This document shows positions 7,317-39,995 of a DNA stretch of 64,000 nucleotides, one piece after another. The position numbers and the translations under genes were made by a program. The notes beneath the pieces were generated by a model, which was given only the letters and a program-made list of their open reading frames with translations, was not told where the DNA came from and ran no database searches. Every line of letters begins with the position of its first letter. Position 1 is the stretch's first letter. This stretch comes from Escherichia phage BAU.Micro_ELP-22: sequence record OR699282.2; one strand, given 5' to 3'.

Positions 7317-7328
7317 TATCTTACTTCT

Positions 7329-7407
<79 letters not shown>

Positions 7408-7424
7408 CAAAATAAAGGTACACT

Positions 7425-8428: not shown

Positions 8429-8441
8429 CTCGGAGCTTAAT

Positions 8442-9104: not shown

Positions 9105-9133
9105 AAGGCTGATTCGATGAATCGGCCTTTTTT
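9105..9133 (+). terminator. rho-independent terminator
   Basis: 11 bp stem AAGGCTGATTC/GAATCGGCCTT with GAT loop, then TTTTTT. Confidence 0.7.
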
Positions 9134-9142
9134 CTTATATAG

Positions 9143-9571: not shown

Positions 9572-9572
9572 A

Positions 9573-9989: not shown

Positions 9990-10392
9990 TATTTTAAATG
10001 AAAAAACAGTTGATGTTGTTATTGGTGTTCTTAACACCGCAACTTCATTTCAGAAGAAACACAGTGTTGTATACTTCGGTGAAGATTGTTGGCTGAACTA
10101 TACTAATAATTCGTTTATAATTCGTGTAGAGGCTGATGATATTGGATTAACCGTTCAGGTAGGATGTGCCAAAACTGACAAACAAATCACTGTCATTGTT
10201 GATAAACTTACGTCTTCTTTTTATGATAGTATAGATGATTGTGAACACTATAGTTCAACATTTTATGATACAGAAGAAGAACATTTTATGGAAAGTACTG
10301 TTCAAGAGTTAGCTATTCCATATAAGCTAATGAAAGCAGTGAGTGATTTAATTTTAAAATATAAAAAAATAGGAGTTACTAATGCAATTTAA
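9982..10392 (+). CDS. hypothetical protein, FQxSTV-motif family
   Basis: ATG after CAGGAA; C-term EEEHFMESTVQELAIPYKL. Confidence 0.5.
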   Translation: MSNILNEKTVDVVIGVLNTATSFQKKHSVVYFGEDCWLNYTNNSFIIRVEADDIGLTVQVGCAKTDKQITVIVDKLTSSFYDSIDDCEHYSSTFYDTEEEHFMESTVQELAIPYKLMKAVSDLILKYKKIGVTNAI

Positions 10393-10828
10393 TGGTAAAG
10401 TTTCCAAAGTAGGTTTGGTTTTTGAAAACTGTGAATTTGTTGATATTGATGTAAAGAATGTTTTATGGATGCATATTGCTGATGAGAAGACTCTTTGTAG
10501 CCGTTTTTCAAACGGACTGACAATTAGTACTGTTATCGGTGAGTTCGGTATTGCATTACGCAGCAATACACCATCGGATTTCATGGACAACTCTACACTG
10601 TTAGACCGTTTAAAAATGCGTGACGTTACACACGTTTATCTATATGATACTAACGGTGTTGAACAGCGTTATGTAGTTGAATGGGCTAATTATAACCTTA
10701 GTGATCAATATTCAGTAAACCAGCGTGTTCAAATCACCCCTGGTGGTAATATTGTGTTTGTTAGTTCAACTGGTAAATTAATCAGTGTAGATGATAAAAA
10801 CATTGACCTATTCACAGCATATAACTAA
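10382..10828 (+). CDS. hypothetical protein
   Basis: 148-codon ORF. Confidence 0.55.
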   Translation: MQFNGKVSKVGLVFENCEFVDIDVKNVLWMHIADEKTLCSRFSNGLTISTVIGEFGIALRSNTPSDFMDNSTLLDRLKMRDVTHVYLYDTNGVEQRYVVEWANYNLSDQYSVNQRVQITPGGNIVFVSSTGKLISVDDKNIDLFTAYN

Positions 10829-10839
10829 TACGAGCTTCC

Positions 10840-11259
10840 ATGAAAACAATCAAAATTCATTTCAAAGACACTTGGACAGAAGTAAGTACTGGTAATATTC
10901 AGGATATTTTATATAGTACTGAAACTATTCATGTTTATGATGAAGAGACTGCTTCCGAGCAGTTAAAAGTTTTGCATCGTAGTGTTGGTGTGCACACTGA
11001 ATATGGCATTAAACATACTCGTGAATTACTTAATACTAATCACATTGAAACCCGTAAAGCAAACTTATCAAAAGAAGAAATGTTCGATTTCATCCTGAAC
11101 CATAAAGTTCATATTGAGCCTGATGGGTCTATATGGGAGAACACTGCTGGACAAAAAGTGCTGAAAAAATATCATGTTTCAATTGATAATGTAAAAATGT
11201 CAGGGTATGATTTGGAAGATGCAATTAATGAATATGTATCTAGGCAGAGGGCAAATTGA
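10840..11259 (+). CDS. hypothetical protein
   Basis: 139-codon ORF. Confidence 0.55.
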   Translation: MKTIKIHFKDTWTEVSTGNIQDILYSTETIHVYDEETASEQLKVLHRSVGVHTEYGIKHTRELLNTNHIETRKANLSKEEMFDFILNHKVHIEPDGSIWENTAGQKVLKKYHVSIDNVKMSGYDLEDAINEYVSRQRAN

Positions 11260-11630
11260 TGAGCTTGATAACATTTACAATTATTTGTTGCATTACTATT
11301 GTACTTTGTCGCCTGATTCATGTATACTCATATCATAAAGCGTTGCGAATCGAACAAGAGATTTACAACGAAAACCGAGAACCAGAACCAGTCAAGAAGC
11401 CACCATCACCTTATGGGTTGAAACGTGAGATGCATTCTCAAAGTAAAAAGTGGGGTTATGCAATTACTAAAAATGGCTACATCTATACTGCAAGTAATGG
11501 TTATTTTCAAATTCACCACGAATTAGAAGTGGCAGTTCAAATTTTGTGGGAGATGGAGGACATTGGTGGTTATGAGCGTACTAAGTTTGAATTCATATCA
11601 AATGATCCAGGAACTTCACGAGAAACATGA
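11256..11630 (+). CDS. hypothetical protein with N-terminal transmembrane segment
   Basis: 124 codons; hydrophobic N-terminus. Confidence 0.55.
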   Translation: MMSLITFTIICCITIVLCRLIHVYSYHKALRIEQEIYNENREPEPVKKPPSPYGLKREMHSQSKKWGYAITKNGYIYTASNGYFQIHHELEVAVQILWEMEDIGGYERTKFEFISNDPGTSRET

Positions 11631-11775
11631 TATAATTGTTGATGTGGAGAAGAAGGAAGTCGTTATGAAAAAGCAAGCATATAGAATTTTAGAAGACTTC
11701 CATCTAAAAGCATTTATAATGAAGTTCTGTACAGATGAACATCTTACCGGACGAGTAATACGTAAGGAGTTGTAA

Positions 11776-12117
11776 ATGAACTTAAGTTCAACAATTCAGT
11801 ACTTGAGCAGTAACTTCGAGAAAATTATTTCTCGCGGTGGGATGATTGTACACCCAGAAACAGAGGAAATGTACATCATTGGATTTGATAAAAATTCTTA
11901 TGATCAAGTACTTGTAATTTCCAAGTTAGAAAGTTATAATGAAGTTGTTCAGTTTTGCTGTACCGAATTTGGTATCTATATTAAAGACGCTGAAACTAAT
12001 ACAATTTCGCATTATTTTTACCACACACTGATGGGTACTAAAGACTTCGGCTTGAAGTTCGATGATTTAGTACAATGTCACTATATGTTTAAAACCTTCC
12101 CAGCTAGTGGGCATTAA
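11776..12117 (+). CDS. hypothetical protein
   Basis: 113-codon ORF with AAGGAG SD. Confidence 0.55.
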   Translation: MNLSSTIQYLSSNFEKIISRGGMIVHPETEEMYIIGFDKNSYDQVLVISKLESYNEVVQFCCTEFGIYIKDAETNTISHYFYHTLMGTKDFGLKFDDLVQCHYMFKTFPASGH

Positions 12118-12130
12118 GGAGTATATCAAT

Positions 12131-12919
12131 ATGAGCAACATTTTCTTCAAAACTATTTCTTTCAAAAAAGCATCTTACTCCTACGCCTACGTTGATGGTA
12201 AAGTGCTTAATATTGTACTGGATGGTGTTGACGTACCAGTTGAATTTAAAACACATGAAGAAGCAGTTGAAGGTGCTAAAGAATTGAATTCAATTCTTAA
12301 TGGTGAAGTAAGTCAAAAACAACATGTAAAATCTGATTTAGATGTACTTTTGGAAAAAATCAAAACTGGTGAAGTATTAGAAATTTTAGACAACTGTAAT
12401 GAAAAACTTCGTAATGTAGTTAATAATGTTCGTGACCAGATTCAAGAAAAAGCACTAGAGCAAGCATTCAAACATGTATCCAAGAATGCTGAATCTCGTA
12501 TTGACGGTATGGTTAAAAATCTTGATGATGTACTATCCCATCTCTTTACTAAAGAATACGAACAAGAAGTTGAAGAAGAACCAGTAAAAGAAACTAAAAA
12601 AGAAAAACGTAGCTTTGGCTCAGGTGATGATGTGTTTGGTTTTACGAATGTCAGAACAAGTGCAGATGAACCAAAAGAAATTAGTGAGATGCTCATTGGT
12701 GACATGACAACTAAGCAGCTTCGTAATGAAATTGACAAGTTTGTAACTAGTTGTATCAAATCAGAACGTGCACAAAGTATGTTTAAAAGCATTAGTGAGA
12801 ACTTTGGTCCAGAAGCAACTGAGCAGGCACTAACTGCATTTAAAGAATTGATTTATAATGTAGCCATTAGCAATCCAGATAAAACACTTGAAGAAGTTCT
12901 ACGTGACAATTTCAAATAA
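12131..12919 (+). CDS. hypothetical acidic protein
   Basis: ATG 9 nt after AAGGAG; ends just before terminator. Confidence 0.6.
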   Translation: MSNIFFKTISFKKASYSYAYVDGKVLNIVLDGVDVPVEFKTHEEAVEGAKELNSILNGEVSQKQHVKSDLDVLLEKIKTGEVLEILDNCNEKLRNVVNNVRDQIQEKALEQAFKHVSKNAESRIDGMVKNLDDVLSHLFTKEYEQEVEEEPVKETKKEKRSFGSGDDVFGFTNVRTSADEPKEISEMLIGDMTTKQLRNEIDKFVTSCIKSERAQSMFKSISENFGPEATEQALTAFKELIYNVAISNPDKTLEEVLRDNFK

Positions 12920-12932
12920 TTAGATAAAATTA

Positions 12933-12960
12933 AAGCCACTACAATGTAGTGGCTTTTTTT
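12933..12960. terminator. bidirectional rho-independent terminator
   Basis: AAAGCCACTAC-AAT-GTAGTGGCTTTTTTT between convergent genes. Confidence 0.75.
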
Positions 12961-12961
12961 A

Positions 12962-14116
12962 TTATGCGTTGTAACCAACTATTACGACTGAGCAGTCAAG
13001 CGGTTCTACTACTTTAAGAATTACATTATCATCTTCATCCACTTGTATTTCACTATGAACTACATGATTGTCTGAAGAATATAATTGAACTTGTGGTAGT
13101 GCTTTACCATGTTCAGTTACTGGAACTGAGATAGAGTACATAGAGTCTTCACCGAGAACCCACTCACTTAAAGTATATTCTTTATGGAAAGGAGTAGTAT
13201 GCAGTGTTTTTCCGATTATACTCAAAGAAACAGGTAAATTATCAGTTTGATACACAGTAATATTACCTTCTGCGTCTACAGAAAGATCTACACCAACTTG
13301 ATATAAGTCACCACTGTATGCTTGAAGTGCTAAGTACTGTCCACGATCATGAACATCAAATGGAACAACCGCAGAAAATACACCTTCCGAAACAGGTTCA
13401 AATTGGGATAGAAGAACTGATGTAACAAAATCAATATCCTCACCACTTTCAAGAACATCAAATTCCACCACTTTAGTGTTATAATATGGAGAAGTGAGTG
13501 TAGCAGTACCTTTCCCTGATTGTGTGATAACATCAACTGGAATTGTAAATGCATCATTAACAAATTGGGTAGTAAAGTATTCTGTCCCGTCTGGTAATAC
13601 GATTGTTATTACCATACCGTTAGTATCAATTTCTGAACCAGTGTTGAATAATTTACCACTAATTGAGTCATTACCAACAAATACTGGTGAAATGAGAATA
13701 TTATCTATATCACGATCTATAATACCACATTCAGGTGTATACATATGATACAAGGTTTGTGAACTACCTAAAATTGTTTTATGTAGCATGAATTTATATA
13801 CAAATCCAGTATCAGTTTCTTGTGGCTCTTCAGAATATCCACGAACAAAGAAACAATTTTTATTAATTTCACTTAATAGTTGGTCATTAGTTTTATTGTA
13901 ATTTAATAGATAACCTTTATTATCTTTAGTTGTTATTTGTACTTTACGATATATTATATTAGTTCTTGGATCAACTAAATCATATAATCTATGGCTTCTT
14001 TGGCGATAGATTCTAATATTTTTTAGTCTAGTTCCATCATTGAGGATTGCACCATCAACAACATAACCACATTCACCAAACTTATAGCGTCCAGCCGCAG
14101 CAATTGACCTTGACAT
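12962..14116 (-). CDS. hypothetical protein (single inverted gene)
   Basis: 384-codon minus-strand ORF with GGAGGG SD and TATAAT on minus strand at 14120-14160. Confidence 0.7.
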   Translation of the reverse strand: MSRSIAAAGRYKFGECGYVVDGAILNDGTRLKNIRIYRQRSHRLYDLVDPRTNIIYRKVQITTKDNKGYLLNYNKTNDQLLSEINKNCFFVRGYSEEPQETDTGFVYKFMLHKTILGSSQTLYHMYTPECGIIDRDIDNILISPVFVGNDSISGKLFNTGSEIDTNGMVITIVLPDGTEYFTTQFVNDAFTIPVDVITQSGKGTATLTSPYYNTKVVEFDVLESGEDIDFVTSVLLSQFEPVSEGVFSAVVPFDVHDRGQYLALQAYSGDLYQVGVDLSVDAEGNITVYQTDNLPVSLSIIGKTLHTTPFHKEYTLSEWVLGEDSMYSISVPVTEHGKALPQVQLYSSDNHVVHSEIQVDEDDNVILKVVEPLDCSVVIVGYNA

Positions 14117-14175
14117 TTATCCCTCCATTGGTATAATTATTATAACGTATTTATTATGCATATCCAAAAAATGAG

Positions 14176-14204
14176 CTTGACTGGTGTATGATTTGGTGTT
14201 ATCA
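14176..14204 (+). promoter_or_regulatory. sigma70-like promoter TTGACT-N17-TATCAT
   Basis: Divergent from minus-strand promoter of 12962..14116. Confidence 0.5.
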
Positions 14205-14232
14205 TGTAGTGAATGAATAATGAGGTGTTTTT

Positions 14233-14817
14233 ATGAATGTTATTGATAATAGATTAGTACTGAAAAATGGAAAAATGACTGTTAAGTTATATAAAGATGA
14301 AGCTGATTCCTTTATGGCAAAAGCGATTGAAAAATCAGAAAGATATAAACTTTTGGCTCCAGCAAGTAAATCGCCATATGGTTTTAATCATGCACATAGT
14401 CATTTTGTTGGTATGGTGTGTGAGCACGCATCTTTAGTACTTTTTAATGAAATTGAAAACAATACTGGTATTAAACTTAATATCGATCCAGCATTCCAAA
14501 ATGAAGCACGTGACGGTGAATGTGATATTAAGGTAAACAACCTTCGTATTGAAGTAAAAGGTATCAAGTATAAATCATGGACTGACTTTGGACCATGTGT
14601 TAGTACTCGACAGTTAAAAAATATCCAGAAAAAAGCTGACGTAATACTATGGGTATTGTATAATGAGAAAAAACAAGAGTTCACGTTTGAGGGATTCAAC
14701 TATGTAAAAGATATTAGTTCTATCCCAGTTGTCCTCACTGGTGTACCAGGGCGACCAATGATTGAAAATCACCCAGTACTCGGTATTATGAAACCACTAC
14801 AGGAGTTACCATTGTGA
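14233..14817 (+). CDS. hypothetical protein (possible PD-(D/E)xK-like motif)
   Basis: 194 codons; DGECDIKVNNLRIEVKG resembles D...ExK nuclease core (weak). Confidence 0.6.
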   Translation: MNVIDNRLVLKNGKMTVKLYKDEADSFMAKAIEKSERYKLLAPASKSPYGFNHAHSHFVGMVCEHASLVLFNEIENNTGIKLNIDPAFQNEARDGECDIKVNNLRIEVKGIKYKSWTDFGPCVSTRQLKNIQKKADVILWVLYNEKKQEFTFEGFNYVKDISSIPVVLTGVPGRPMIENHPVLGIMKPLQELPL

Positions 14818-15041
14818 TTACTGCAACTGTATATCAAGATATCAATGAAGAATTTCATTCTAAAATTGCGTTCTTATCATTTCCTGTACTCCCAGTAGTT
14901 GGGTCAACGTTGAATCTTACCATTTGTGGGTTTGAGAAATATTATAAAGTTCTAGATATTGAGTACTGTGCTGATGTGTATTCATGTAATAGTGAAATTG
15001 CAATTCCAGTATCAATCGATATTATTGTAAAAGAGGTTTGA
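14814..15041 (+). CDS. hypothetical small protein
   Basis: 75-codon ORF, overlapping start. Confidence 0.5.
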   Translation: MITATVYQDINEEFHSKIAFLSFPVLPVVGSTLNLTICGFEKYYKVLDIEYCADVYSCNSEIAIPVSIDIIVKEV

Positions 15042-15499
15042 TTATGTTTAAGAATTTTATGGTTATCGTAGCAGTACTGTTTGGCACATCATGTTTTATT
15101 TCCCCAGTACACGCAGAAGAACAACGTCAAACTATTAAAACTATTGGGACTGGTAAAACTCCCCCTAAACGTACTGCTGACGAATACATGCCTGAAATGC
15201 GTGAACGTTATCGTCAGACATACAGGGAAAAACATGCTAATGATAAACCCATCAAGAAGCATAAATGGGAAGTTGTTAAATCTCCTTCATTTTGTGCTGG
15301 ATATGCTAAAGTAAAGATTGAGCAGCACAAAAACCAGTACTATAAAGATATGTATTCCTTCTATGACTCCAGAATTTCTGACACAGATATGATGGCAGGG
15401 AAGGTTGATAAAGAAGAATTTCTACAAGGCTATGATATGATGGACGATGACAAAATCATGGAATGCGTTGAAGTGTATGAAAAATACAGAGGCTTCTGA
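15038..15499 (+). CDS. secreted protein with signal peptide
   Basis: N-terminus MIMFKNFMVIVAVLFGTSCFISPVHA then charged mature region. Confidence 0.6.
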   Translation: MIMFKNFMVIVAVLFGTSCFISPVHAEEQRQTIKTIGTGKTPPKRTADEYMPEMRERYRQTYREKHANDKPIKKHKWEVVKSPSFCAGYAKVKIEQHKNQYYKDMYSFYDSRISDTDMMAGKVDKEEFLQGYDMMDDDKIMECVEVYEKYRGF

Positions 15500-15975
15500 T
15501 GTTAACAATAGTGTTGTTGGTAAGTCCATTTGTGTATTTTGTGCTGTATAATATTTTTAGTAATGCTAATCATTTTAAATATGCACAAACAATTGCAAAA
15601 CATGAAGGATTTTGGAATTTTTTCCCAGCGTTACTATGCTCATATCTATACCATGAACGCTATTTCATTTTTCCTGAATATAAAAATTATGGTTATGATT
15701 CTAAAGTAAATGGTATAATTGAGTACTGTATAAGAAATTATCTTAATAATAATGATAACGTCCAAGTAAGAATAGGAAATGGTAATATATCAAGAATAGT
15801 TTTCATACCTGATATACAAGACCCAATATACTTATATCCATATGATTATAGTATTAGTGTAGGTTGTTCGATACATGGTAGTAAATCTATGTACGATTAC
15901 TTTATCTTACCACCAACACAAATTAAATTAATAGAAAAATATTTGAGGGAAAAGTTTGACAACAAAGATTCTTAG
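15499..15975 (+). CDS. hypothetical membrane-anchored protein
   Basis: 158 codons; hydrophobic N-terminus. Confidence 0.55.
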   Translation: MLTIVLLVSPFVYFVLYNIFSNANHFKYAQTIAKHEGFWNFFPALLCSYLYHERYFIFPEYKNYGYDSKVNGIIEYCIRNYLNNNDNVQVRIGNGNISRIVFIPDIQDPIYLYPYDYSISVGCSIHGSKSMYDYFILPPTQIKLIEKYLREKFDNKDS

Positions 15976-16016
15976 TATTATAATTAACACACCAAGTAAC
16001 CCAAGGGGGATGGAAA

Positions 16017-16475
16017 ATGGATGTATTAGCTACAAATTTCAAACGTAATGTTGAAGAGCGTGAAGGTTATTTTAGTATTAGTGAAGTTGTCGATGACAAT
16101 TTTAAACAATACATTTTTAATAGTGCAATTAAATTAAAATGCACAAAAGATTCACCTGATCGTAGCTTTACTAAATGGATTGCGTATTGGGAAGATTCAC
16201 CAGTTGCAATTGAAATGACTGTGATTACAACAGTACTTGAAACTGGTTACATCAAAGCCATTATAGTTGATAAGAAAGTCCGTACTCTTGATGAAATTAA
16301 TCCATATCCAGCCCGAAATTCTAAAGTTTTTGGTGTGTTGGTTGATGGTAAATTTATGATAGAAAAAGATGCAAAGGAATATGTAATTAATAAACTTCAA
16401 ACTACATCAGAAAAAAAGGAAGTAGTGGACCAAAACTCTGTTGATGCAATCAAAAAAGCATGGGGACTAAAGTAA
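16017..16475 (+). CDS. hypothetical protein
   Basis: 152 codons, GGGGGA SD. Confidence 0.55.
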   Translation: MDVLATNFKRNVEEREGYFSISEVVDDNFKQYIFNSAIKLKCTKDSPDRSFTKWIAYWEDSPVAIEMTVITTVLETGYIKAIIVDKKVRTLDEINPYPARNSKVFGVLVDGKFMIEKDAKEYVINKLQTTSEKKEVVDQNSVDAIKKAWGLK

Positions 16476-16476
16476 T

Positions 16477-16899
16477 ATGTTCACACTAAGTAATGCAAAA
16501 TATCTTTTTCTTATTAGTATTATTGGTTGGGTTATGGCTCCAGTGCTAAATGCACTGGGGTTTTCCGATGAACATAAACTTTTAAATGTTTCAGGTTTAA
16601 TTCAGGGTATTTCATGGTATACATTAATTACATTTTCAGTGTGCATCAATACATTTGCCCGTGATTATCGACGTTTGTTATATCTGAAAGTATTTGGAAC
16701 TACACGATATAGTTTTGTTTACACTTTCATTTTAGTACCGTGTATGTTATATGCATTTGTATTTGATTACTATACATATCTATGGGTATGTGGAACTATG
16801 TTTGTTATGTTGGAATACATCAGAACTGTTCAAAACTCATATGCCGATGAGTTTCATGATCTAGAAGTTAAACGAAAATTAACGGAGCTAAACAAATGA
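16477..16899 (+). CDS. integral membrane protein
   Basis: 140 codons, multiple hydrophobic segments. Confidence 0.55.
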   Translation: MFTLSNAKYLFLISIIGWVMAPVLNALGFSDEHKLLNVSGLIQGISWYTLITFSVCINTFARDYRRLLYLKVFGTTRYSFVYTFILVPCMLYAFVFDYYTYLWVCGTMFVMLEYIRTVQNSYADEFHDLEVKRKLTELNK

Positions 16900-17321
16900 G
16901 AGGCTATAATAAGATTTGTATTTTTGTATTTTTAGTTTGTGCATTCAATTCGTTTGGTTACTACTGTACAGAAAATAATATTTCATATGGTTTAAATCCT
17001 TTGTGGTTTACAATTTCCAATGTAGCACAAATTGGTATTGCTCTTATGTCTGCACTTATGTTCTGTCCAATTGTCACTATGGATACTGATCATGAAAGGC
17101 TTGGATTTCTCCGTGATACTGGAGACGAACCTTACAGTAGATTGATTGTGTTGTATCCATTTATTGTTATTTTAGGTACTAACATCCAACTTGGGTCATT
17201 ATCTAATAGTGTTACATCAGCAGCTATTGCTATATTTGCATTCACATTTTTTATGGTACACAAATCAGTACTTAATTGGTATATCACAAAAATGGCAGAA
17301 GAAGGTACTAAAAATACTTGA
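16896..17321 (+). CDS. integral membrane protein
   Basis: 141 codons, multiple hydrophobic segments. Confidence 0.55.
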   Translation: MRGYNKICIFVFLVCAFNSFGYYCTENNISYGLNPLWFTISNVAQIGIALMSALMFCPIVTMDTDHERLGFLRDTGDEPYSRLIVLYPFIVILGTNIQLGSLSNSVTSAAIAIFAFTFFMVHKSVLNWYITKMAEEGTKNT

Positions 17322-17346
17322 CATAATTTAGTATGTTATATATAAT
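17318..17346 (+). promoter_or_regulatory. sigma70-like promoter TTGACA-N17-TATAAT
   Basis: TTGACATAATTTAGTATGTTATATATAAT. Confidence 0.55.
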
Positions 17347-17380
17347 TATTTTGTTAAAAACAAATTAGAGTAAGGAACTT

Positions 17381-17632
17381 ATGAACATCGATAAGGTCAA
17401 AGAACTTAGTGCTGCACTAATTAAGAATGAAGAAGTTTGTGAAGAACTTCGCAGTACTATCAAAGTTGAGTACGCACGACTCCAAGGTATGCTTCAAGAA
17501 TCAGAATGGGTAGTAACTAAATCTATCGAAGCAATCTATAAGGATATCGAATCCCTTTTCAACAAGAAAAGTAAGATTGAATCTGATTCATATAACAAAC
17601 GTAAAGAGTTATCTACTGCACTTGGTATCTAA
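17381..17632 (+). CDS. hypothetical protein
   Basis: 83 codons, AAGGAA SD. Confidence 0.5.
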   Translation: MNIDKVKELSAALIKNEEVCEELRSTIKVEYARLQGMLQESEWVVTKSIEAIYKDIESLFNKKSKIESDSYNKRKELSTALGI

Positions 17633-17706
17633 AAGTATTTGAGATAACAAATAATATGGAGTACAATGTGCTCCTAATTTAATTATCAGCTAAAAAGGAA
17701 AACATT

Positions 17707-17967
17707 ATGAAATCTATTCTCGTTGCAGTTAACCTGGTTGCTTCCCCATCTTTCAACTTCAAACAAGTTGTTGCTGATAATCTGAAGAAGATCTGTCCAA
17801 ACGCTGAATTAACTTTCTGTGTGTTTGATTCAGAAAAAGTAACTAAAGTTGATCTAAACTATCTTTTGAACGAAGTAAAAAGCGTTTCTGGTGAAAGTAA
17901 CTTAAAAGTTCTTCATGATATTGCAGAAGATTATGATGACACTCTAGTAATTTCGGAGAAATTCTAA
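17707..17967 (+). CDS. hypothetical protein
   Basis: 86 codons, AAAGGAAA SD. Confidence 0.5.
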   Translation: MKSILVAVNLVASPSFNFKQVVADNLKKICPNAELTFCVFDSEKVTKVDLNYLLNEVKSVSGESNLKVLHDIAEDYDDTLVISEKF

Positions 17968-17972
17968 ATCAA

Positions 17973-18392
17973 ATGATTACATTCATTCAGTACTTAATCA
18001 TTAAATTTTTTGGCTATCATACGATTGAAGGCAAAGCTACACTCGCACATAAAATCTTTGTAGCATTATGTACGGGTGATTATGACGTATTGAATAAGTA
18101 CTGTAAATCTAAAGCATGTATTGATATAATGGCACTTCGTATCTATGAGTGCCGTTCCAATAGATACAATTTTTACCAATACAGATTTGATGAAAAAGAA
18201 TTTGATAGCATCAAAATGCTTAAGAATTTATGTAACAATAAAAAGAATATGCATATATCAGAATTTGTTGCTTTGTATTTTTATTTAAAAAGTTCATTGT
18301 ATATGAACACAATGCAAAGATTCGATACTAGAATTAATGTATTCACCGATAAAGAATTTTATATATACGATAAATTCTTAGATAAGGTTTAA
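17973..18392 (+). CDS. hypothetical protein
   Basis: 139-codon ORF. Confidence 0.5.
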   Translation: MITFIQYLIIKFFGYHTIEGKATLAHKIFVALCTGDYDVLNKYCKSKACIDIMALRIYECRSNRYNFYQYRFDEKEFDSIKMLKNLCNNKKNMHISEFVALYFYLKSSLYMNTMQRFDTRINVFTDKEFYIYDKFLDKV

Positions 18393-18393
18393 T

Positions 18394-18891
18394 ATGACAA
18401 CTGTTTATATTGATAAACGATTAAATTTATTGATTACCGATTCTAGAGTTACGTCAACTATACCACGAAACTTATTTGGTTTTTTCCCACTAAGACCAAA
18501 ATATCAATATGGAGTTGTTAATCAAAAAACTTTATATGTACATGACCGTTTATTCAGTGCTAGTGGGGTAGTAAGTGAAATTGATAAAGTACTGGATTGG
18601 TTAATTAATAAAGTACCAGTTATACCTGACAGAAAGTTAAGTTGCCATTGTGTGCTTCTTTCTAAAGATTATGTTATTCATATGATTTTAACTAAAGGAA
18701 AGTTTATTAAAAAACTTGAATATCTACATGAAGACTACACTTTCTTTATGGGAAGTGGTGGAGAATACATGCTAGATGCTGCTATTCATGAAGAACATAC
18801 AACTTTATATGATAAAGTGTTTAGTACTTTCATGGATGTGCACAACCATGATTGTTTCACAGATGATAATATTAATGTATATCGATTTTGA
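18394..18891 (+). CDS. HslV-like Ntn-hydrolase peptidase (proteasome beta-type)
   Basis: N-terminal MTTVYIDKRLNLLITDSRVT parallels HslV Thr nucleophile region; FFMGSGGEYMLDAAI matches the HslV GSGG motif (recalled, not searched). Confidence 0.55.
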   Translation: MTTVYIDKRLNLLITDSRVTSTIPRNLFGFFPLRPKYQYGVVNQKTLYVHDRLFSASGVVSEIDKVLDWLINKVPVIPDRKLSCHCVLLSKDYVIHMILTKGKFIKKLEYLHEDYTFFMGSGGEYMLDAAIHEEHTTLYDKVFSTFMDVHNHDCFTDDNINVYRF

Positions 18892-18912
18892 TTTCGTCAT
18901 TAGGAGATGTAA

Positions 18913-19878
18913 GTGAAAAAGCTTGATTTAAATACAATTGCCGAAGAAGTTCTGGATGAATGTTTTGCTAATGAAGAAGTCAACACACTAGAAGCCTTAG
19001 ATTTCGTTGAAGATAAAGATGAAAATGAAGGTAAAGTACAAAGCAGTTTCAAATATAATATTACACTTAAGCGACCACCAAATGTTTCCAATGAAGATCT
19101 AATTCGTGATATTCAAGCTGGTATCAATGTAAAGAAAAACACTGAACTGTTAGTTCGTTACAATTATGGACTGATTATTGATGTAGCAAGTAAATGTACT
19201 TGTTATATCCCATTTGAAGATAAGATTTCATATGGTGTTGAGGGGTTCATGAGAGCACTAAAAACCTTTGATCTTAATAAGAATGTTAAGTTCATTACCT
19301 ATGCTTCTTCTAGTATTTACATGACAGTCTATAACGAAAGTTCTGACGCTAACTATATGGTACACTTCCCACGTTATATGAGTGTTCATAAGATCAAAGT
19401 AAAAAGATTCTGTCAGGAATATATGCGTAAACATGGTGTTCGCCCAACTCCTGAAATAATCTCAGAGGGTACTGGGATTGAGATTCAGCATGTTAATAAT
19501 TGTTTGTTATTTCAAAGCGAATACACTTCGCTGGATGCACCATTAGACGGTGTTACAGATGGTACATTAGGTGACATTATTCATTCACCTGCTTCTGATT
19601 TTAACCTCAATGTTGATAGTATCCGTGCACCTTTACGTTATGCTATCAATGAACTGACTAACGAATTGAGTACTAAAGAACGTGAGATTATCCAGCGTGT
19701 TCATGGTCTAGGTGAATATGAACCTGAAACGCTTCGTGAGATTGCTGATAATGGTTTTGTTGATGATAATGGAAAATATGTTAAATCCCGTTCATCAATA
19801 CACCGAAAGTACAGTGAAGCTATGCAAAAGCTTAAGAAGTTAGTACTTGCAAAAGGGTACGAATACGAAGATTTCTAA
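18913..19878 (+). CDS. sigma-70 family RNA polymerase sigma factor
   Basis: GTG start after TAGGAG; regions 2 and 4 recognisable: NVKFITYASSSIYMTV, HFPRYM, GVRPTPEIISE, LSTKEREIIQRVHGL..TLREIA. Confidence 0.7.
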   Translation: MKKLDLNTIAEEVLDECFANEEVNTLEALDFVEDKDENEGKVQSSFKYNITLKRPPNVSNEDLIRDIQAGINVKKNTELLVRYNYGLIIDVASKCTCYIPFEDKISYGVEGFMRALKTFDLNKNVKFITYASSSIYMTVYNESSDANYMVHFPRYMSVHKIKVKRFCQEYMRKHGVRPTPEIISEGTGIEIQHVNNCLLFQSEYTSLDAPLDGVTDGTLGDIIHSPASDFNLNVDSIRAPLRYAINELTNELSTKEREIIQRVHGLGEYEPETLREIADNGFVDDNGKYVKSRSSIHRKYSEAMQKLKKLVLAKGYEYEDF

Positions 19879-19884
19879 AGAACA

Positions 19885-19911
19885 AGGGTTGGCTTATGCC
19901 AACCTTTTTTT
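19885..19911 (+). terminator. rho-independent terminator
   Basis: GGTTGGC-TTAT-GCCAACC followed by TTTTTTT. Confidence 0.8.
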
Positions 19912-19949
19912 ATGGGATGAAGTAAAAGTTTGTGATATAATTATCTTGT

Positions 19950-20430
19950 ACAATTCTGTTGGCATGATATTCATGTACCTGATCCACTCGAAAACGTAGA
20001 GGGCAGTTGAGCAGTCCGACAGTGCGAACAGCAAAAGAAACCCGTTAGATGTGGGCATAGTTTGAACCCCTCACGGCAATGCGGCTGTATAAAGAACCAC
20101 GTTAGGATAGCTGGTGGTTCCTTGATAGACATATAAGGATAACACCTTACGAATTATCTAAGGGAGAGTTATCGAATTTTGTACAGGAAAGTTGCGTCCA
20201 AAATTTGAGTACTCACATTAAGTATTTGATTGCATAGATACTTAATGAAGATACACTATGTTTAAAAGTGTAGACCGTCATATGAAACTGAAGTAGAGAG
20301 AAACAGGATGACCCGCTTTCGCACTCGTTATGAGTAATCTTCAATGCAATAGCTCTGATACCATCAGCGTCAAATTTCCCTCCTTGTGGGGGGAAGAAAA
20401 ATCCCTTCCTCAAATCCCGTCAATATTAAA
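19950..20430 (+). ncRNA. candidate structured noncoding RNA
   Basis: ~600 bp gene-free, GC-richer interval between terminator and next promoter; extended -10 TGATATAAT at 19933-19941; G/C hairpins. Confidence 0.3.
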
Positions 20431-20435
20431 AGTCC

Positions 20436-20464
20436 TTGACAGTTATTAATCATTCGCGTAGAAT
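20436..20464 (+). promoter_or_regulatory. sigma70-like promoter TTGACA-N17-TAGAAT
   Basis: Upstream of 20529 operon. Confidence 0.55.
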
Positions 20465-20528
20465 ACGTAGTATTAGAAGCGAACAGACATCTCGAAGAGA
20501 TGGATGATTAACCATTAAGGAATATCCA

Positions 20529-20738
20529 ATGAATTCAGTAATCTTTTTAGTAGTCGCTTTTTCTGTTAATTCCGGTGTACAAATAACCCCAATGAATTCC
20601 ATGAATCAATGTATAGCAGTACGTGATAGTACATACGAACAAGTAAACAAAGATATTTGGATTACAGTTAATAAAGAACAAATGTGGTGTTACAATAGTA
20701 ATACTAACACAAAGCTTATTGTAGGACAAACTCAATGA
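20529..20738 (+). CDS. small secreted protein
   Basis: 69 codons; hydrophobic N-terminus. Confidence 0.5.
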   Translation: MNSVIFLVVAFSVNSGVQITPMNSMNQCIAVRDSTYEQVNKDIWITVNKEQMWCYNSNTNTKLIVGQTQ

Positions 20739-20965
20739 GTTATGGTGTTCGTTTTGAGATTCGTTCTATTGTCATCGATGCAGAGAAACAAGTATCGTTA
20801 GATGGTGATATACGTGAAATTTATCTATCATGTATACGTGCGAAATCTGAAGCAGATGCCTTAGTACAAATGTATAGTTTTAACTTTTCAAATGGATTCT
20901 ATTTGGTACGAGTTATTGAAGTGAAAAAAGTACTTATTGGTTGTAGCATAGAAGGATTAATGTAA
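20735..20965 (+). CDS. hypothetical protein
   Basis: 76-codon ORF. Confidence 0.5.
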   Translation: MSYGVRFEIRSIVIDAEKQVSLDGDIREIYLSCIRAKSEADALVQMYSFNFSNGFYLVRVIEVKKVLIGCSIEGLM

Positions 20966-20966
20966 A

Positions 20967-21755
20967 ATGAGCACTATAGATGAACTGATTCGACGGAATT
21001 CAAAATATTACCAACCATCAGAAATTGTAGGTAACATTACCAAATCAGAGTTTGGTCCAAATACTCGAAAACTCATTCATGTAATGTCACGTGATGGCTT
21101 TAAATGTGATTGTTGTGGTGAATCAAATGTAGTATTCACTTTACACAAGCACAGTACTAAAGAACGTTATAAATTCAGACCTTATGTACTTAAAGGGAAA
21201 CGCCTTGTACGCATGACGTTAGACCATAATGTACTGGACTGTCTTCAGGGCGGTAATGATAAAGAGAACATGACTGCACTGTGTGAAGATTGTAACGCAT
21301 TACGCCAGCATAAGTTTGCTGAATACAGTGAGTTTAAACACTGGTATCATAACGCGGATCGTTCAATCGAGCCTGACGTTAACTACTGCTTCATTGAGTA
21401 CATTAAGAATGCCAAAGATACATACATTCTTAAATCAATGTCACCTATTACCGTGTTTCCTGAGAACCTATTCACTACATTAAAGAATAGTTTTATTGTA
21501 GGTGATATTGATGCATTCAAGTATTTTGACAAAGGTGCAAAACATTTTGAAATTCAATGTCTTAGTACTGCACTATGTGAACTCATTAAAATTTACATAA
21601 AAGAGTATTTGGGTATTGACAATGTACGTGTACCAGAGTATACTTTTTCTATTGAATTCGATTGTGAATCAATCAAAGAGTTTGGAATTCTTTTCAATAA
21701 ACAAATAGAACTTGCAATTCAAAACGAAATCAAGTACTATACTACTAACATTTAA
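20967..21755 (+). CDS. HNH endonuclease-like protein
   Basis: CDCCGES zinc-ribbon Cys plus LDHNVLDCLQGGNDKENMTALCEDCNALRQH (HNH core). Confidence 0.6.
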   Translation: MSTIDELIRRNSKYYQPSEIVGNITKSEFGPNTRKLIHVMSRDGFKCDCCGESNVVFTLHKHSTKERYKFRPYVLKGKRLVRMTLDHNVLDCLQGGNDKENMTALCEDCNALRQHKFAEYSEFKHWYHNADRSIEPDVNYCFIEYIKNAKDTYILKSMSPITVFPENLFTTLKNSFIVGDIDAFKYFDKGAKHFEIQCLSTALCELIKIYIKEYLGIDNVRVPEYTFSIEFDCESIKEFGILFNKQIELAIQNEIKYYTTNI

Positions 21756-21770
21756 TCAGAGGAAATTATC

Positions 21771-21953
21771 ATGCAAATTATCATTCTTATCGTTGGCATC
21801 ATGCTGGGTGTTTACGGTCACTCCTGGATGAACGAGAAGTTTCCTAATACGCGTCCTGAGTATTGCAGTACTAATGTATTCCAGAATGGTGAGAAACCAA
21901 AGGAAAGCATTGGTAAAAAGCTGGATAAAGTACTTGATGTGATCAATGAATAA
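21771..21953 (+). CDS. small membrane protein
   Basis: 60 codons, hydrophobic N-terminus. Confidence 0.45.
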   Translation: MQIIILIVGIMLGVYGHSWMNEKFPNTRPEYCSTNVFQNGEKPKESIGKKLDKVLDVINE

Positions 21954-21963
21954 GGGCCATAAA

Positions 21964-22164
21964 ATGTTTAAACCGAATTCCAATGTTGGTAAGAAAGTTC
22001 AATTACTTGAAGATGTATCCACCATGAGTGGAATTTTCCCAAGAGGTCACATCATGACTATTATTGCCGAAACATCCCGTGGGTGGGATTTGGAAGATGC
22101 TGATGGTAATCGCATCCTTGAGGCTGGATTCTATGGTCATCGTGAATATAAAATCATTGATTAA
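21964..22164 (+). CDS. hypothetical small protein
   Basis: Start chosen after upstream stop; track start 21946 also possible. Confidence 0.45.
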   Translation: MFKPNSNVGKKVQLLEDVSTMSGIFPRGHIMTIIAETSRGWDLEDADGNRILEAGFYGHREYKIID

Positions 22165-22173
22165 GGATACAAC

Positions 22174-22257
22174 ATGACTTTAGAGATTGTCTTTGGTATT
22201 GTTAGCTTAGTCGTCTGTGTGGGTTGGTTTGGGTATCTGATGATTTTTGGTGATTAA
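22174..22257 (+). CDS. hydrophobic micropeptide (27 aa)
   Basis: ATG after AAGGAT; MTLEIVFGIVSLVVCVGWFGYLMIFGD. Confidence 0.3.
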   Translation: MTLEIVFGIVSLVVCVGWFGYLMIFGD

Positions 22258-22260
22258 TAC

Positions 22261-22288
22261 TTGACATAAGATATCAGTACTGTATAAT
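22261..22288 (+). promoter_or_regulatory. sigma70-like early promoter
   Basis: TTGACATAAGATATCAGTACTGTATAAT. Confidence 0.6.
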
Positions 22289-22381
22289 GTTTATATCAAA
22301 GGGAATGCAGTGAAAGGAAAGACAGCATAATCGTACTCGTCACTGCGTTCCCGCCCTTTTAAATTAAATGAGGAATTAACT

Positions 22382-22690
22382 ATGTTTCAAACTAACACTC
22401 AAGGTTTTGTAATCATCGATTTGAATCAAAACAGCGGTTATTGGATGAAACCTACTGACGCATGTATGCAGTTTGATTTTTTAGGTTACAGGATTAGTGT
22501 AAGTACTGGTGCTTCTGTACTGCGTGGTGGTTGTATCGTTGAACATCTGGTAACTGATCCAGAAGGTCGTGAGTATGAAATCGCAGGTTCGGTACAAGAT
22601 GCCATTATGTTTGTATGTCAGCGTGAAATGAATAGTTCGAATTCAAATGCACTGACTCATGCTCTTTCTCAAGAAGTGGAGGTTCGTTAA
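22382..22690 (+). CDS. hypothetical protein
   Basis: 102 codons, GAGGAA SD. Confidence 0.55.
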   Translation: MFQTNTQGFVIIDLNQNSGYWMKPTDACMQFDFLGYRISVSTGASVLRGGCIVEHLVTDPEGREYEIAGSVQDAIMFVCQREMNSSNSNALTHALSQEVEVR

Positions 22691-22941
22691 TGAAATATAT
22701 CGTAGCAGTACTCGTTGCATTTTTACTCACTGCATGTGACGCTTCAACAAAAGAACGCACAAGTGATTTTATTCTCCCTATTGAATTACAAGAAGCAGGA
22801 TGTAAGATTTATCGTATGCAAAAGGACGGTGCTGGCGTAACCTTGTATACAGTTTATTGCCCTAATGCAAATACCAGTACTGGATACAGCAGCGGTAAAA
22901 CACGAATCAATACTTCAGTGATTAATGGAGTACAACAATGA
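22690..22941 (+). CDS. putative lipoprotein
   Basis: MKYIVAVLVAFLLTAC lipobox-like signal. Confidence 0.55.
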   Translation: MKYIVAVLVAFLLTACDASTKERTSDFILPIELQEAGCKIYRMQKDGAGVTLYTVYCPNANTSTGYSSGKTRINTSVINGVQQ

Positions 22942-23306
22942 GCCTTGATACAACCCGTGCAACAGATTTATTAACTCGTATGAATAATGAAGAATTTCTT
23001 GCTGAAATAAAGTACAAGCTTGAAAAACTGGCACGAAGTGCTGAAGTAATTGAAGTTGAAGGTCACTTACCAATGGACCAATTCAATACGTTCAACGAAG
23101 ATATGGTTTATTATCCAAATGAAATTTGGATTGAGTGGGAGTCATGGACTAACAAAACTCTACGCATTGAAGGTTATTGTGTGAATTATGAATCTGAACC
23201 TGGTGATGTTACAAAAACTCTCTCCATTTGGTGTACAAAAACACATGAACTCGTTGAGGTGAATTTGAATTATATGAAAGGTTTCCGTTGGGGTGATGTT
23301 CAATGA
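22938..23306 (+). CDS. hypothetical protein
   Basis: 122-codon ORF. Confidence 0.55.
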   Translation: MSLDTTRATDLLTRMNNEEFLAEIKYKLEKLARSAEVIEVEGHLPMDQFNTFNEDMVYYPNEIWIEWESWTNKTLRIEGYCVNYESEPGDVTKTLSIWCTKTHELVEVNLNYMKGFRWGDVQ

Positions 23307-23578
23307 TTAAAAAACTATTGACAGTTGTCTTTGTATTCTGTACAATGTTTCTTACAGCATGTAATGATGACGGCAGGTTTAGTGCAAAAGACTTAGTTCG
23401 TCAGGATTGTACATTCACAGGTAAGTCTTTTATTAACGAGTATGAGGTATGTACACAATCAGGCCGTATCTGTGGTGGTTGGGAAAAACGACAGGAGCGA
23501 TTGTATGTATATGAATGCCCTGGACATCACAACAAAGTACTAAGCACACACAAACTTGTTTATGATAAGGTTGAATAA
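23303..23578 (+). CDS. putative lipoprotein
   Basis: MIKKLLTVVFVFCTMFLTAC lipobox-like signal. Confidence 0.55.
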   Translation: MIKKLLTVVFVFCTMFLTACNDDGRFSAKDLVRQDCTFTGKSFINEYEVCTQSGRICGGWEKRQERLYVYECPGHHNKVLSTHKLVYDKVE

Positions 23579-39761: not shown

Positions 39762-39995
39762 ATGAAACTATCTTTTATACGATTGGCTGAATTCTTTGGT
39801 ACTGATGTAATTACTCTACAACAAATCGCAGATAATACATCATTAACTACACAAGAAGTACTTGATTTAGATGTAATTCAGTGCGATAATACTTCCATCG
39901 ATTACAAAGAAGGTCTTGTCGAAAAAGATAAGATTCAAGCTAAAATTAATGGTGCTGGACGGGTTCAGTACTGGAAAGGAGTTTTAAGTAAATGA
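39762..39995 (+). CDS. hypothetical protein
   Basis: 77 codons, AGAGGC SD. Confidence 0.5.
   Translation: MKLSFIRLAEFFGTDVITLQQIADNTSLTTQEVLDLDVIQCDNTSIDYKEGLVEKDKIQAKINGAGRVQYWKGVLSK

What the first reader, a model, noticed from the sequence alone, without database searches (positions are those of the whole stretch)
20967..21755. Free-standing HNH endonuclease gene downstream of the structured intergenic region
HNH core (DHNVL..GG..N..LC..CN) plus an N-terminal Cys cluster; such genes are often mobile homing endonucleases. Together with the AT-rich nuclease-like gene at 39992 this suggests nuclease-driven cassette mobility in the region.
Basis: partly seen in the sequence, partly recalled or inferred. 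Interest (0 to 1): 0.35.

Follow-up and report, generated by a model that had tools for sequence, protein, structure and literature searches.

The report
Resident HNH nuclease gene, jumbo coliphage
The ORF is a real, intact HNH DNA-cutting enzyme gene of a 121Q-like jumbo coliphage that databases already annotate, and it looks like an old, dispensable resident gene that is sometimes deleted rather than a cassette that is actively moving.

The parts
20967..21755 (+). HNH endonuclease gene (262 aa), ortholog of 121Q gp170 / phrog_35175
21105..21116 (+). Codons C47-D-C49-C50: first Zn knuckle of the CCCC zinc-finger HNH. C47 and C50 are invariant in 23 homologs.
21222..21296 (+). Catalytic beta-beta-alpha-Me core: D86-H87 (general base), N101, C106-x2-C109-N110. 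All are invariant in the family.
21462..21740 (+). C-terminal helical domain (about residues 166-258) with no informative fold match. It exists as two deeply diverged alleles in the genus (47% aa identity, against 97% for residues 1-170).
21616..21644 (+). Sigma70-like promoter TTGACA-N17-TATACT embedded in HNH codons 217-226 (I-D-N-V-R-V-P-E-Y-T), 127 nt upstream of g171. It is conserved in fEgEco12, the A4 remnant and metagenomic contig L006, and it is retained in the spacer of the HNH-less alleles.
   Evidence: consensus match and conservation; activity not tested
20735..20965 (+). g169 (76 aa, phrog_28392, no known function). Its start overlaps the g168 stop (ATGA), and it is deleted together with the HNH gene in the HNH-less phages.
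20708..21746 (.). Segment with no BLAST counterpart in ECO103 4-12-1, JNE01 and Turkey5 (the g169 + HNH module). It is replaced there by a 74-79 nt spacer carrying TTGACA-N17-TATA(C/A)T. That spacer aligns best to 21616-21660 inside the HNH gene.
20978..21508 (.). 531-nt in-frame segment missing in phage A4 (its gene = MST + residues 181-262). It is bounded by the direct repeat ATAGATG / ATTGATG, so the end points are uncertain by about 7 nt.
20529..20738 (+). g168, first small ORF of the operon (121Q annotates a shorter start at 20602).
20436..20464 (+). Sigma70-like promoter TTGACA-N17-TAGAAT upstream of g168-g169-HNH (putative early promoter).
19975..20440 (+). Roughly 450-nt structured RNA element (the 'structured intergenic region') between the sigma-factor gene terminator and the operon promoter.
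21771..21953 (+). g171, first gene downstream. It is present in all alleles and directly follows the spacer promoter in HNH-less phages.
39992..41416 (+). AT-rich (24.8% GC) 474-aa ORF. It has repeated HG..Y.Y...CP.C modules plus a C-terminal PD-(D/E)xK-like motif (PYDLYVP...LLEKDG), and hits phrog_559 and phrog_9084 'homing endonuclease'. Its distribution is sporadic.

Best explanation
The ORF encodes a catalytically intact zinc-finger HNH (His-Me finger) DNA endonuclease, the ortholog of 121Q gp170.

Inferred chemistry, from the family: His87 activates water. A single divalent metal is held by Asp86 and Asn110. Asn101 braces the beta-hairpin. Cys47/Cys50 and Cys106/Cys109 bind a structural zinc. 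The N-terminal helices and the variable C-terminal helical domain would supply DNA contacts.

Genetically it is a free-standing gene that forms a 1.04-kb two-gene module with g169. The module sits in a putative early, host-sigma70-driven operon downstream of the phage sigma-factor gene and a structured RNA gene.

My best reading is that it is a long-resident, vertically inherited nuclease that is kept by selection but is dispensable. It is of the same kind as free-standing homing endonucleases and possibly derived from one. In today's Asteriusvirus population it changes by homologous recombination and by deletion, not by invading new sites. Its 3' end also carries the promoter of the downstream genes, which explains why deletions spare that piece.

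Its target is unknown. Candidates are the DNA of co-infecting relatives that lack it, or host DNA.
For: HNH identity and intact active site.

Same locus in about 26 of 33 distinct Asteriusvirus genomes, with one copy of this ortholog group per genome.

Deep synteny. The order sigma, RNA, a few genes, HNH holds in metagenomic lineages with 60% (L006) and 38% (L028) identical HNH proteins. One lineage (L026) has the HNH gene directly after the sigma gene. Serratia phage BF, GAP32 and L025 have it 6-7 kb downstream of the RNA.

Purifying selection. dN/dS is 0.04-0.14 for codons 1-170, even where dS is saturated, which is comparable to the sigma-factor gene.

Dispensability. The propagated isolates JNE01 and Turkey5 lack g169 + HNH.

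Loss by deletion. A4's in-frame 531-nt gap lies between ATAGATG and ATTGATG repeats. The best local alignment of the ECO103 spacer within the 1032-nt module is to the promoter inside the HNH gene (z=7.2, 0 of 500 shuffles). That promoter is conserved in four diverged alleles. The protein motif around it (G-[IVL]-x-x-[AV]-R-x-P-x-Y-x-F) also occurs in distant homologs, so this sequence belonged to the protein first.
Against: No biochemical or genetic data exist for this family, and 'early operon' rests only on consensus promoters.

Some features fit an active homing element equally well. There is a presence/absence polymorphism with sharp borders in genomes that are 98% identical in the flanks. 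Short recombination tracts surround the site. The nuclease core (21087-21311) is the least diverse segment among six HNH-positive genomes between 18.9 and 22.0 kb (mean 2-4%, against 9-22% in g169 and the C-terminal domain). Its dS against fEgEco12 (0.27) is lower than that of its immediate neighbours (0.40-1.3). Both could reflect recent horizontal spread of the nuclease core.

The similarity between the spacer and the internal promoter could partly reflect a shared promoter consensus. The JNE01 spacer alone is not significant (z=1.3). ECO103 4-12-1 is an UNVERIFIED_ORG record.
Confidence: 0.5

Rival explanations
1. It is an active free-standing homing endonuclease. The protein cuts the g168-g171 junction region, or nearby conserved DNA, of co-infecting relatives that lack the module. 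Repair from the HNH-positive genome then copies g169 + HNH with flanking markers, so the module spreads super-Mendelianly, as with T4 Mob/Seg genes.
For: The gene is free-standing and intergenic. It is absent or truncated in about 5 of 33 genomes, with borders at the gene ends. Interrupted copies occur in SD-1_S14 and CMSTMSU. The nuclease core is a local diversity minimum across clades, with lower dS than its neighbours. The flanks are mosaic. The same genome carries other homing-type nuclease genes. The CBB homolog was called a free-standing homing endonuclease by annotation (PMC5259590).
Against: The HNH-less alleles look like deletion remnants rather than intact target sites. The high-identity tract covers only the inside of the gene (about 21030-21460), not the whole module plus flanks as co-conversion would predict. 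The ECO103 recombinant moved the empty allele into an HNH-positive-type background. Deep synteny and near-fixation are unlike the sporadic pattern of the ORF at 39992.
Confidence: 0.3
2. It is a domesticated conflict or housekeeping nuclease with no selfish drive. It would be an early enzyme that nicks or cuts host DNA (as T4 endonuclease II does) or the DNA of unrelated superinfecting phages, with g169 as a possible partner or inhibitor.
For: It sits in a putative early operon behind a near-consensus sigma70 promoter. It shows strong purifying selection and deep conservation in the Rak2-like clade. Dispensability in culture is what is seen for T4 denA/denB (my own knowledge, not tested here).
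Against: No mechanism of self-protection is evident, and fEgEco12 DNA is cut normally by restriction enzymes (PMC13070987). There is no PADLOC or other defence-family hit. g169 has no detectable homologs outside the genus, and its dN/dS is 0.3-0.7.
Confidence: 0.15
3. It is a nuclease that works with the adjacent roughly 450-nt structured RNA, as a cofactor, guide or substrate.
For: The RNA lies 0.5-1.6 kb upstream of the HNH gene in Asteriusvirus, L006 and L028. The RNA and the HNH family occur in the same set of phage genera. The closest structural matches of the HNH domain are Cas9 and IscB HNH domains, and the only NCBIfam hit is guided_IscB at 19.8 bits.
Against: The RNA is perfectly conserved in phages that lack the HNH gene. 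There are 4 RNA copies per genome but 1 gp170-type gene, and the other copies neighbour unrelated nuclease families. One lineage has the HNH gene with no RNA within 10 kb. The protein has no RuvC or known RNA-binding domain, and the IscB score is far below the cutoff of 175. The Cas9 resemblance is confined to the generic HNH fold.
Confidence: 0.03

Closest known systems
Escherichia phage 121Q gp170 (AIT14060.1) and orthologs in PBECO4, SP27, slurp01, SHEFM2K (phrog_35175)
   Same: Same gene: 98.5-99.6% protein identity, same length, same neighbours, and already annotated 'HNH endonuclease'.
   Different: Nothing of substance differs. This window also lacks 121Q gene 173, located 0.5 kb downstream.
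Serratia phage BF gp391, GAP32_520, CBB_535, Yersinia phage fHe-Yen9-04 HNH (phrog_25420), plus about 28 metagenomic clusters
   Same: They share the CxxC...DH...N...CxxCN core and the following R..FAEY.EFK.WY and NYC.ID motifs, and partly the C-terminal helical region. They lie in the same broad genome region downstream of the sigma factor and the RNA.
   Different: Identity is 25-40%. They are about 30-50 residues longer, with an extra C-terminal tail. Their immediate neighbours are different. They lie 6-7 kb from the RNA rather than 0.5 kb.
T4-type free-standing HNH homing endonucleases (MobA-E) and intron-encoded I-HmuI / I-TevIII
   Same: They also have an N-terminal HNH module with a separate C-terminal region, are inserted between genes of a large lytic phage, and are variably present among relatives. 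This comparison rests on my knowledge of those systems.
   Different: No significant sequence match to characterised Mob or I-Hmu proteins was found (PDB sequence search negative). The distribution is near-fixed and syntenic across genera rather than sporadic. Cleavage and homing are untested.
HNH domains of Cas9/IscB, PtuB, McrA, and the Gme and GVE2 HNH nucleases (solved structures)
   Different: Only about 70-130 residues align, at 8-20% identity. There is no RuvC, DUF, SRA or other partner domain, and no defence-system context.

Membership tests
HNH / His-Me finger endonuclease superfamily (Pfam PF01844, PF14279) | Beta-beta-alpha-metal fold | tested here: met
HNH / His-Me finger endonuclease superfamily (Pfam PF01844, PF14279) | Catalytic D-H, structural Asn and metal-binding Asn/His in the canonical order | tested here: met
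   D86, H87, N101 and N110 are invariant in a 23-sequence family alignment. The last position is Asn, so this is the HNN variant.
HNH / His-Me finger endonuclease superfamily (Pfam PF01844, PF14279) | Two CxxC pairs forming the structural zinc site (zinc-finger subclass) | tested here: met
   C47, C50, C106 and C109 are invariant. Zinc binding itself was not tested.
HNH / His-Me finger endonuclease superfamily (Pfam PF01844, PF14279) | Score above Pfam's gathering threshold | tested here: not met
   This sequence scores 15.7 bits against 21.4 (HNH) and 15.1 against 27.5 (HNH_5). However, 19 of 23 homologs hit HNH_5 at E<=0.01, with a best E of 6e-7. The shortfall is one of sensitivity and does not contradict membership.
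HNH / His-Me finger endonuclease superfamily (Pfam PF01844, PF14279) | Metal-dependent DNA cleavage | not testable with these tools
   Needs purified protein.
Free-standing homing endonuclease genes (T4 Mob/Seg type) | Stand-alone gene between host genes, not in an intron or intein | tested here: met
   It is flanked by g169 and g171, and there is no split gene.
Free-standing homing endonuclease genes (T4 Mob/Seg type) | Sporadic presence/absence at the same locus among close relatives | tested here: inconclusive
   It is absent in JNE01, Turkey5 and ECO103/EC22.5-2, truncated in A4, and the locus is different in EJP2. It is intact in about 26 of 33 genomes and syntenic in distant lineages.
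Free-standing homing endonuclease genes (T4 Mob/Seg type) | Endonuclease-less allele is an intact, never-occupied target site | tested here: not met
   The HNH-less alleles retain the promoter that lies inside the HNH gene. A4's gap is a repeat-bounded internal deletion.
Free-standing homing endonuclease genes (T4 Mob/Seg type) | Unidirectional transfer with co-conversion of flanking markers | tested here: inconclusive
   The nuclease core is a diversity minimum, but the tract does not extend over the module's ends. ECO103 shows transfer of the empty allele.
Free-standing homing endonuclease genes (T4 Mob/Seg type) | Site-specific cleavage of the endonuclease-less allele | not testable with these tools
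   Needs an in vitro cleavage assay or mixed infections.
Terminase-associated HNH (cos-packaging helpers, HK97 gp74 type) | Gene adjacent to terminase or portal genes | tested here: not met
   In 121Q the large terminase is gene 4 (2231-3868), while gp170 is at 91320. Its neighbours here are small early-type ORFs.
RNA-guided IscB/Cas9 nucleases | HNH inserted in a split RuvC domain, with protein length of at least 400 aa and an associated guide RNA | tested here: not met
   The protein is 262 aa with no RuvC. NCBIfam guided_IscB scores 19.8 bits against a cutoff of 175, and only over the HNH core. Rfam finds no HEARO/omega RNA.

The most novel reading that the evidence does not exclude
The gp170-type HNH, and the unrelated nuclease genes that lie within about 1.2 kb of the other three copies of the roughly 450-nt structured RNA, may be functionally tied to that RNA. 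Either the highly conserved RNA genes serve as landing pads or targets around which nuclease genes accumulate in these jumbo phages, or the RNA is a cofactor or guide of the HNH enzyme.
Probability: 0.08. Interest if true: 0.65.

Novelty: already known. Interest (0 to 1): 0.24.

Why it matters
The gene itself changes little. It is a database-annotated HNH endonuclease of a known jumbo-phage genus, and no experiment has ever tested the family.

The natural allele series is of modest value. It runs from intact, through nuclease domain deleted, to module deleted, in otherwise near-identical phages, and it provides ready-made material for a mixed-infection test of homing in a jumbo phage. The promoter embedded in the gene's 3' codons is a concrete example of how a dispensable nuclease gene can become partly protected from deletion.

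The more valuable by-product is the neighbouring RNA. It is a large, strongly covarying, multi-copy RNA family that Rfam 15 does not contain.

Tried and rejected
- **Pfam on the single sequence:** gave only sub-threshold HNH hits.
- **First AlphaFold run:** used 4 near-identical sequences and was useless (pLDDT 50). The second run, on 23 sequences, worked.
- **PDB sequence-profile search:** found nothing meaningful.
- **PADLOC:** no hit for the HNH gene, its neighbours or the ORF at 39992.
- **P0024:** a 971-aa hit with 14 repeats matching positions 174-213. It is a low-complexity, out-of-frame-looking repeat protein and was discarded.
- **g169 against the 'virion structural protein' that precedes the homolog in Serratia phage BF:** no similarity, so tight gene-pair synteny across genera was rejected. 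g171 against BF gp390 also showed none.
- **EJP2 257-aa ORF at the corresponding place:** not an HNH.
- **The 286-aa gene upstream of the HNH gene in L006:** unrelated, with no PHROG hit.
- **Rfam:** no match for the intergenic RNA at the gathering threshold or at E<=10.
- **PA5oct ncRNA001/ncRNA002 (RNA-seq-supported ncRNAs of a related jumbo phage):** no nhmmer similarity to the RNA profile over PA5oct positions 7500-23500. This was a sequence-only test.
- **Word-index protein search:** found few relatives. The exhaustive HMM search was needed.
- **Terminase-helper idea:** rejected on gene position.

Full report
**Source of the window.** Megablast of 20000-23000 finds 39 phage records. The best are Escherichia phages SP27, UB, E9.1 and 121Q at 97-98% identity. 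The window therefore comes from a jumbo myovirus of the genus Asteriusvirus, in the 121Q/PBECO4 group, with a genome of about 350 kb. In 121Q the ORF in question is gene 170, annotated 'HNH endonuclease'.

**Checking the observation.** ORF 20967..21755 (+) encodes 262 aa.

- Pfam finds HNH and HNH_5 only below threshold for this single sequence (E 0.017 and 0.023).
- PHROGs gives phrog_35175 'HNH endonuclease' at E 2e-188, and about twenty further HNH PHROGs down to E 1e-31 and 1e-12.
- An exhaustive HMM search of 1.84 billion representatives returned 139 proteins, 28 of them at E<=1e-10.
- A 23-sequence alignment of the full-length relatives has C47, C50, T84, D86, H87, L90, G95, N101, C106, C109, N110, R113 and F123 invariant.
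- 19 of these 23 proteins hit Pfam HNH_5 and 16 hit HNH.
- AlphaFold2 on that alignment gives pLDDT 89.5; a first run on four sequences had failed.

This is a zinc-finger HNH (HNN variant) nuclease with an apparently complete active site. Residues about 166-258 form a confident helical domain with no informative structural match.

**Local anatomy.** Reading downstream from the sigma-factor gene (18913-19878, Pfam Sigma70 r2/r3/r4):

- an intrinsic terminator at 19884-19907;
- a roughly 450-nt non-coding element at 19975-20440;
- a near-consensus sigma70 promoter, TTGACA-17-TAGAAT, at 20436-20464;
- the tightly packed ORFs g168, g169, HNH, g171 and g172. The g168 stop overlaps the g169 start, and one base separates the g169 stop from the HNH ATG.

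The gene is free-standing, since no host gene is interrupted. That it is expressed early from the host polymerase is an inference from the promoter consensus only.

**Distribution in the genus.**

- tblastn finds the protein once per genome, at the same locus. It is 96-99.6% identical in the 121Q-like phages and the Salmonella SD phages, and about 80% identical in a second clade: fEgEco12, EC.P1, WPEC3/5, TH47, BF17, Turkey3 and vB_Ec-M-J.
- Counting distinct genomes, about 26 of 33 have it intact.
- Two copies are interrupted (SD-1_S14 and CMSTMSU). These may be sequencing errors.
- Phage A4 has an 87-aa gene at the same place, made of M-S-T joined to residues 181-262. At the DNA level this is an in-frame gap of 531 nt, bounded in the intact allele by the direct repeat ATAGATG...ATTGATG. 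That is the signature of a deletion.
- JNE01, Turkey5 and ECO103 4-12-1 lack window 20708-21746 altogether, which is g169 plus HNH. EC22.5-2 has the same record length as ECO103 4-12-1 and is probably the same phage. In all of these, g168 is followed by a 74-79-nt spacer and then g171.
- JNE01 and Turkey5 are propagated isolates, so the module is dispensable.

**Direction of the polymorphism.** The spacer of the HNH-less alleles carries TTGACA-N17-TATA(C/A)T. The same promoter-like site lies inside the HNH reading frame at 21616-21644, in codons 217-226, 127 nt before g171. It is conserved as TTGACA-N17-TATA(C/A)T in fEgEco12, in the A4 remnant and in the metagenomic relative L006, although the surrounding DNA is only about 60% identical.

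The best local alignment of the ECO103 spacer anywhere in the 1032-nt module is exactly this site (score z=7.2, 0 of 500 shuffles). The JNE01 spacer aligns to the same place but is not significant on its own. The protein motif encoded there, G-[IVL]-x-x-[AV]-R-x-P-x-Y-x-F, is also present in distant family members that do not encode the promoter hexamers. The sequence was therefore protein first.

I conclude that the 'empty' alleles are deletion remnants that kept the promoter of the downstream genes. They are not naive target sites. The caveat is that part of the similarity could be promoter consensus, because other early promoters of the window share a GTAC-containing spacer.

**Selection and recombination.**

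- Nei-Gojobori estimates give dN/dS of 0.04-0.14 for HNH codons 1-170 against 121Q, UE-S1, fEgEco12 and L006 (dS from 0.12 to above 2). The sigma-factor gene gives 0.03-0.24, and g169 is less constrained at 0.3-0.7.
- The gene is a mosaic. Against fEgEco12, the nuclease part (about 21035-21434) is 94-99% identical, g169 is 75-90%, and the C-terminal domain is about 60% at the nucleotide level and 47% at the amino-acid level.
- Among six HNH-positive genomes, the nuclease core (21087-21311) is the least diverse stretch between 18.9 and 22.0 kb (mean 2-4%).
- ECO103 is 98-100% identical to the window up to about 20540 and again from about 21830. Between those points it is 99-100% identical to JNE01. 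A short tract has therefore carried the empty allele into a 121Q-type background.
- The window itself switches from 121Q-like to fEgEco12-like at about 22030, and like fEgEco12 it lacks 121Q gene 173.

Recombination is thus frequent around the gene. I could not test whether it is more frequent here than elsewhere in the genome.

**Deeper relatives.**

- The family is found in essentially all Rak2-like phages in the phage collection apart from the RaK2/K64-1 group. This includes GAP32, CBB, Serratia phage BF, the Erwinia SNUABM phages, fHe-Yen9-03/04, the Munch/7t3 group and Xanthomonas XbC2. It also occurs on metagenomic contigs, several of 320-370 kb.
- The order sigma factor, RNA element, a few genes, HNH holds in L006 (60% identical HNH) and in L028 (38% identical; RNA at 8009-8457, HNH at 10001).
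- In L026 the HNH gene follows the sigma gene directly, with no RNA within 10 kb.
- In BF, GAP32 and L025 it lies 6-7 kb downstream of the RNA. The immediate neighbours there are not homologous to g169 or g171.

This is long-term residence in one genome region, unlike a promiscuous mobile gene.

**Interpretation.** The shown facts are these: HNH fold and conserved active-site residues, free-standing position, near-fixation with occasional loss, deletion signatures, purifying selection and deep synteny. The catalytic mechanism is inferred from the family. The biological role is also inferred.

I give about 0.5 to a long-resident, selected but dispensable nuclease of homing-endonuclease kind that is no longer invading. 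I give 0.3 to a still-active homing element that persists through cycles of loss and re-invasion. The low diversity of the core and the sharp indel fit that second reading. The deletion-remnant empties, the interior-only conserved tract and the ECO103 recombinant argue against it. I give 0.15 to a host- or competitor-directed early nuclease and about 0.03 to an RNA-associated nuclease. Published work only annotates these genes. [quoted passage not shown]

ORF 39992-41416 (474 aa, 24.8% GC against about 33% for the window) has repeated HG..Y.Y...GCP.C modules and a C-terminal PD-(D/E)xK-like motif. It hits phrog_559 and phrog_9084 'homing endonuclease'. Only SHEFM2K has the whole region, and JNE01 has part of it. 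Other relatives carry different nuclease genes, or none, next to the denV homolog.

**The neighbouring RNA.** The intergenic element 19975-20440 is 97-100% identical between clades whose flanking genes are 55-85% identical. It is about 70% identical across genera and occurs 3-5 times per genome. On seven homologs from five lineages, RNAalifold predicts 89 pairs. Of the cells, 96.4% pair, and 32 pairs show compensatory double changes, against 2-4 in slid controls and 0 of 500 shuffles reaching the observed value. G-U wobbles place it on the + strand. Rfam 15 has no match.

In ECO103 the four copies lie at 18261-18725, 128311-128786, 208060-208599 and 261510-261984. The last three have, within 0.2-1.2 kb, a 318-aa relative of the ORF at 39992, a 203-aa HNH, and a T5orf172-like 261-aa gene. 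The 203-aa HNH is 121Q gp513, a core gene also present in RaK2. With only 6-7 such nuclease loci detected per genome, this proximity is unlikely by chance, at roughly 1e-3 by a crude post hoc estimate. The nuclease census is incomplete, however, and one of the three is a core gene.

**Verdict.** The finding is real but ordinary: a known, annotated gene. The mobility interpretation is only partly supported. The interesting residue is the natural allele series, the promoter embedded in the coding sequence, and above all the unclassified structured RNA next door.

Noticed in passing
window 19975-20440 (+): This is a large structured RNA of about 450 nt with no Rfam 15 match. On 7 homologs, 89 pairs are predicted and 96.4% of cells pair. 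32 pairs show compensatory double changes, against 2-4 in slid controls and 0 of 500 shuffles. It is 97-100% conserved between clades whose flanking genes are 55-85% identical. It occurs 3-5 times per genome in Asteriusvirus, GAP32, CBB, Serratia phage BF, fHe-Yen9, Munch-like and Xanthomonas XbC2 phages. It deserves its own investigation.
   Followed up: partly
ECO103 4-12-1 (OR844650.1) 128311-128786, 208060-208599, 261510-261984; loci L016-L019: Each of the other three RNA copies has a nuclease-like gene within 0.2-1.2 kb. These are a 318-aa relative of window ORF 39992, the 203-aa HNH 121Q gp513 (a core gene, also in RaK2), and a 261-aa T5orf172-like gene. Only 6-7 such loci were detected in the 352-kb genome. 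The association is post hoc and the nuclease census is incomplete.
   Followed up: partly
window 21616-21644 (+): A sigma70-like promoter, TTGACA-N17-TATACT, is embedded in HNH codons 217-226. It is conserved in four diverged alleles and retained in the spacer of the HNH-less phages. It probably drives g171 and the genes downstream.
   Followed up: yes
window 22281/22282: The window and the fEgEco12 clade lack a roughly 350-bp segment carrying 121Q gene 173 (294 nt), whose A4 homolog is annotated as a sigma-70 family protein. From about 22030 to 23400 the window is about 100% identical to fEgEco12 but only 91-96% identical to 121Q, so the window's phage is a recombinant of the two clades.
   Followed up: partly
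window 39992-41416 (+) and flanks 39300-42300: This AT-rich (24.8% GC) 474-aa homing-endonuclease-like ORF sits next to the denV homolog (38482-38997). Only SHEFM2K shares the whole region. Other relatives carry different endonuclease genes (HNH, GIY-YIG-like, 'homing endonuclease') or none, which makes this a hot spot for nuclease-gene turnover.
   Followed up: partly
L022 (ph0011) and L023 (TH47), region matching window 20104-20412: Phages ph0011 and TH47 carry a version of the RNA at this locus that is 32-39% diverged from the window's, although g168, g169 and the HNH core are 2-10% diverged. This suggests replacement of the RNA allele, perhaps by a paralogous copy.
   Followed up: no
window 1985-7408 (+): A cluster of seven tRNA genes (Gly x2, Ser x2, Met, Asn, Thr). 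One, at 1985-2057, is called only by ARAGORN, and one, at 3181-3259, only by Rfam at the threshold.
   Followed up: no
window 18394-18891 (+): The 165-aa ORF upstream of the sigma-factor gene is annotated 'ATP-dependent protease subunit HslV' in fEgEco12 but had no Pfam hit here.
   Followed up: no
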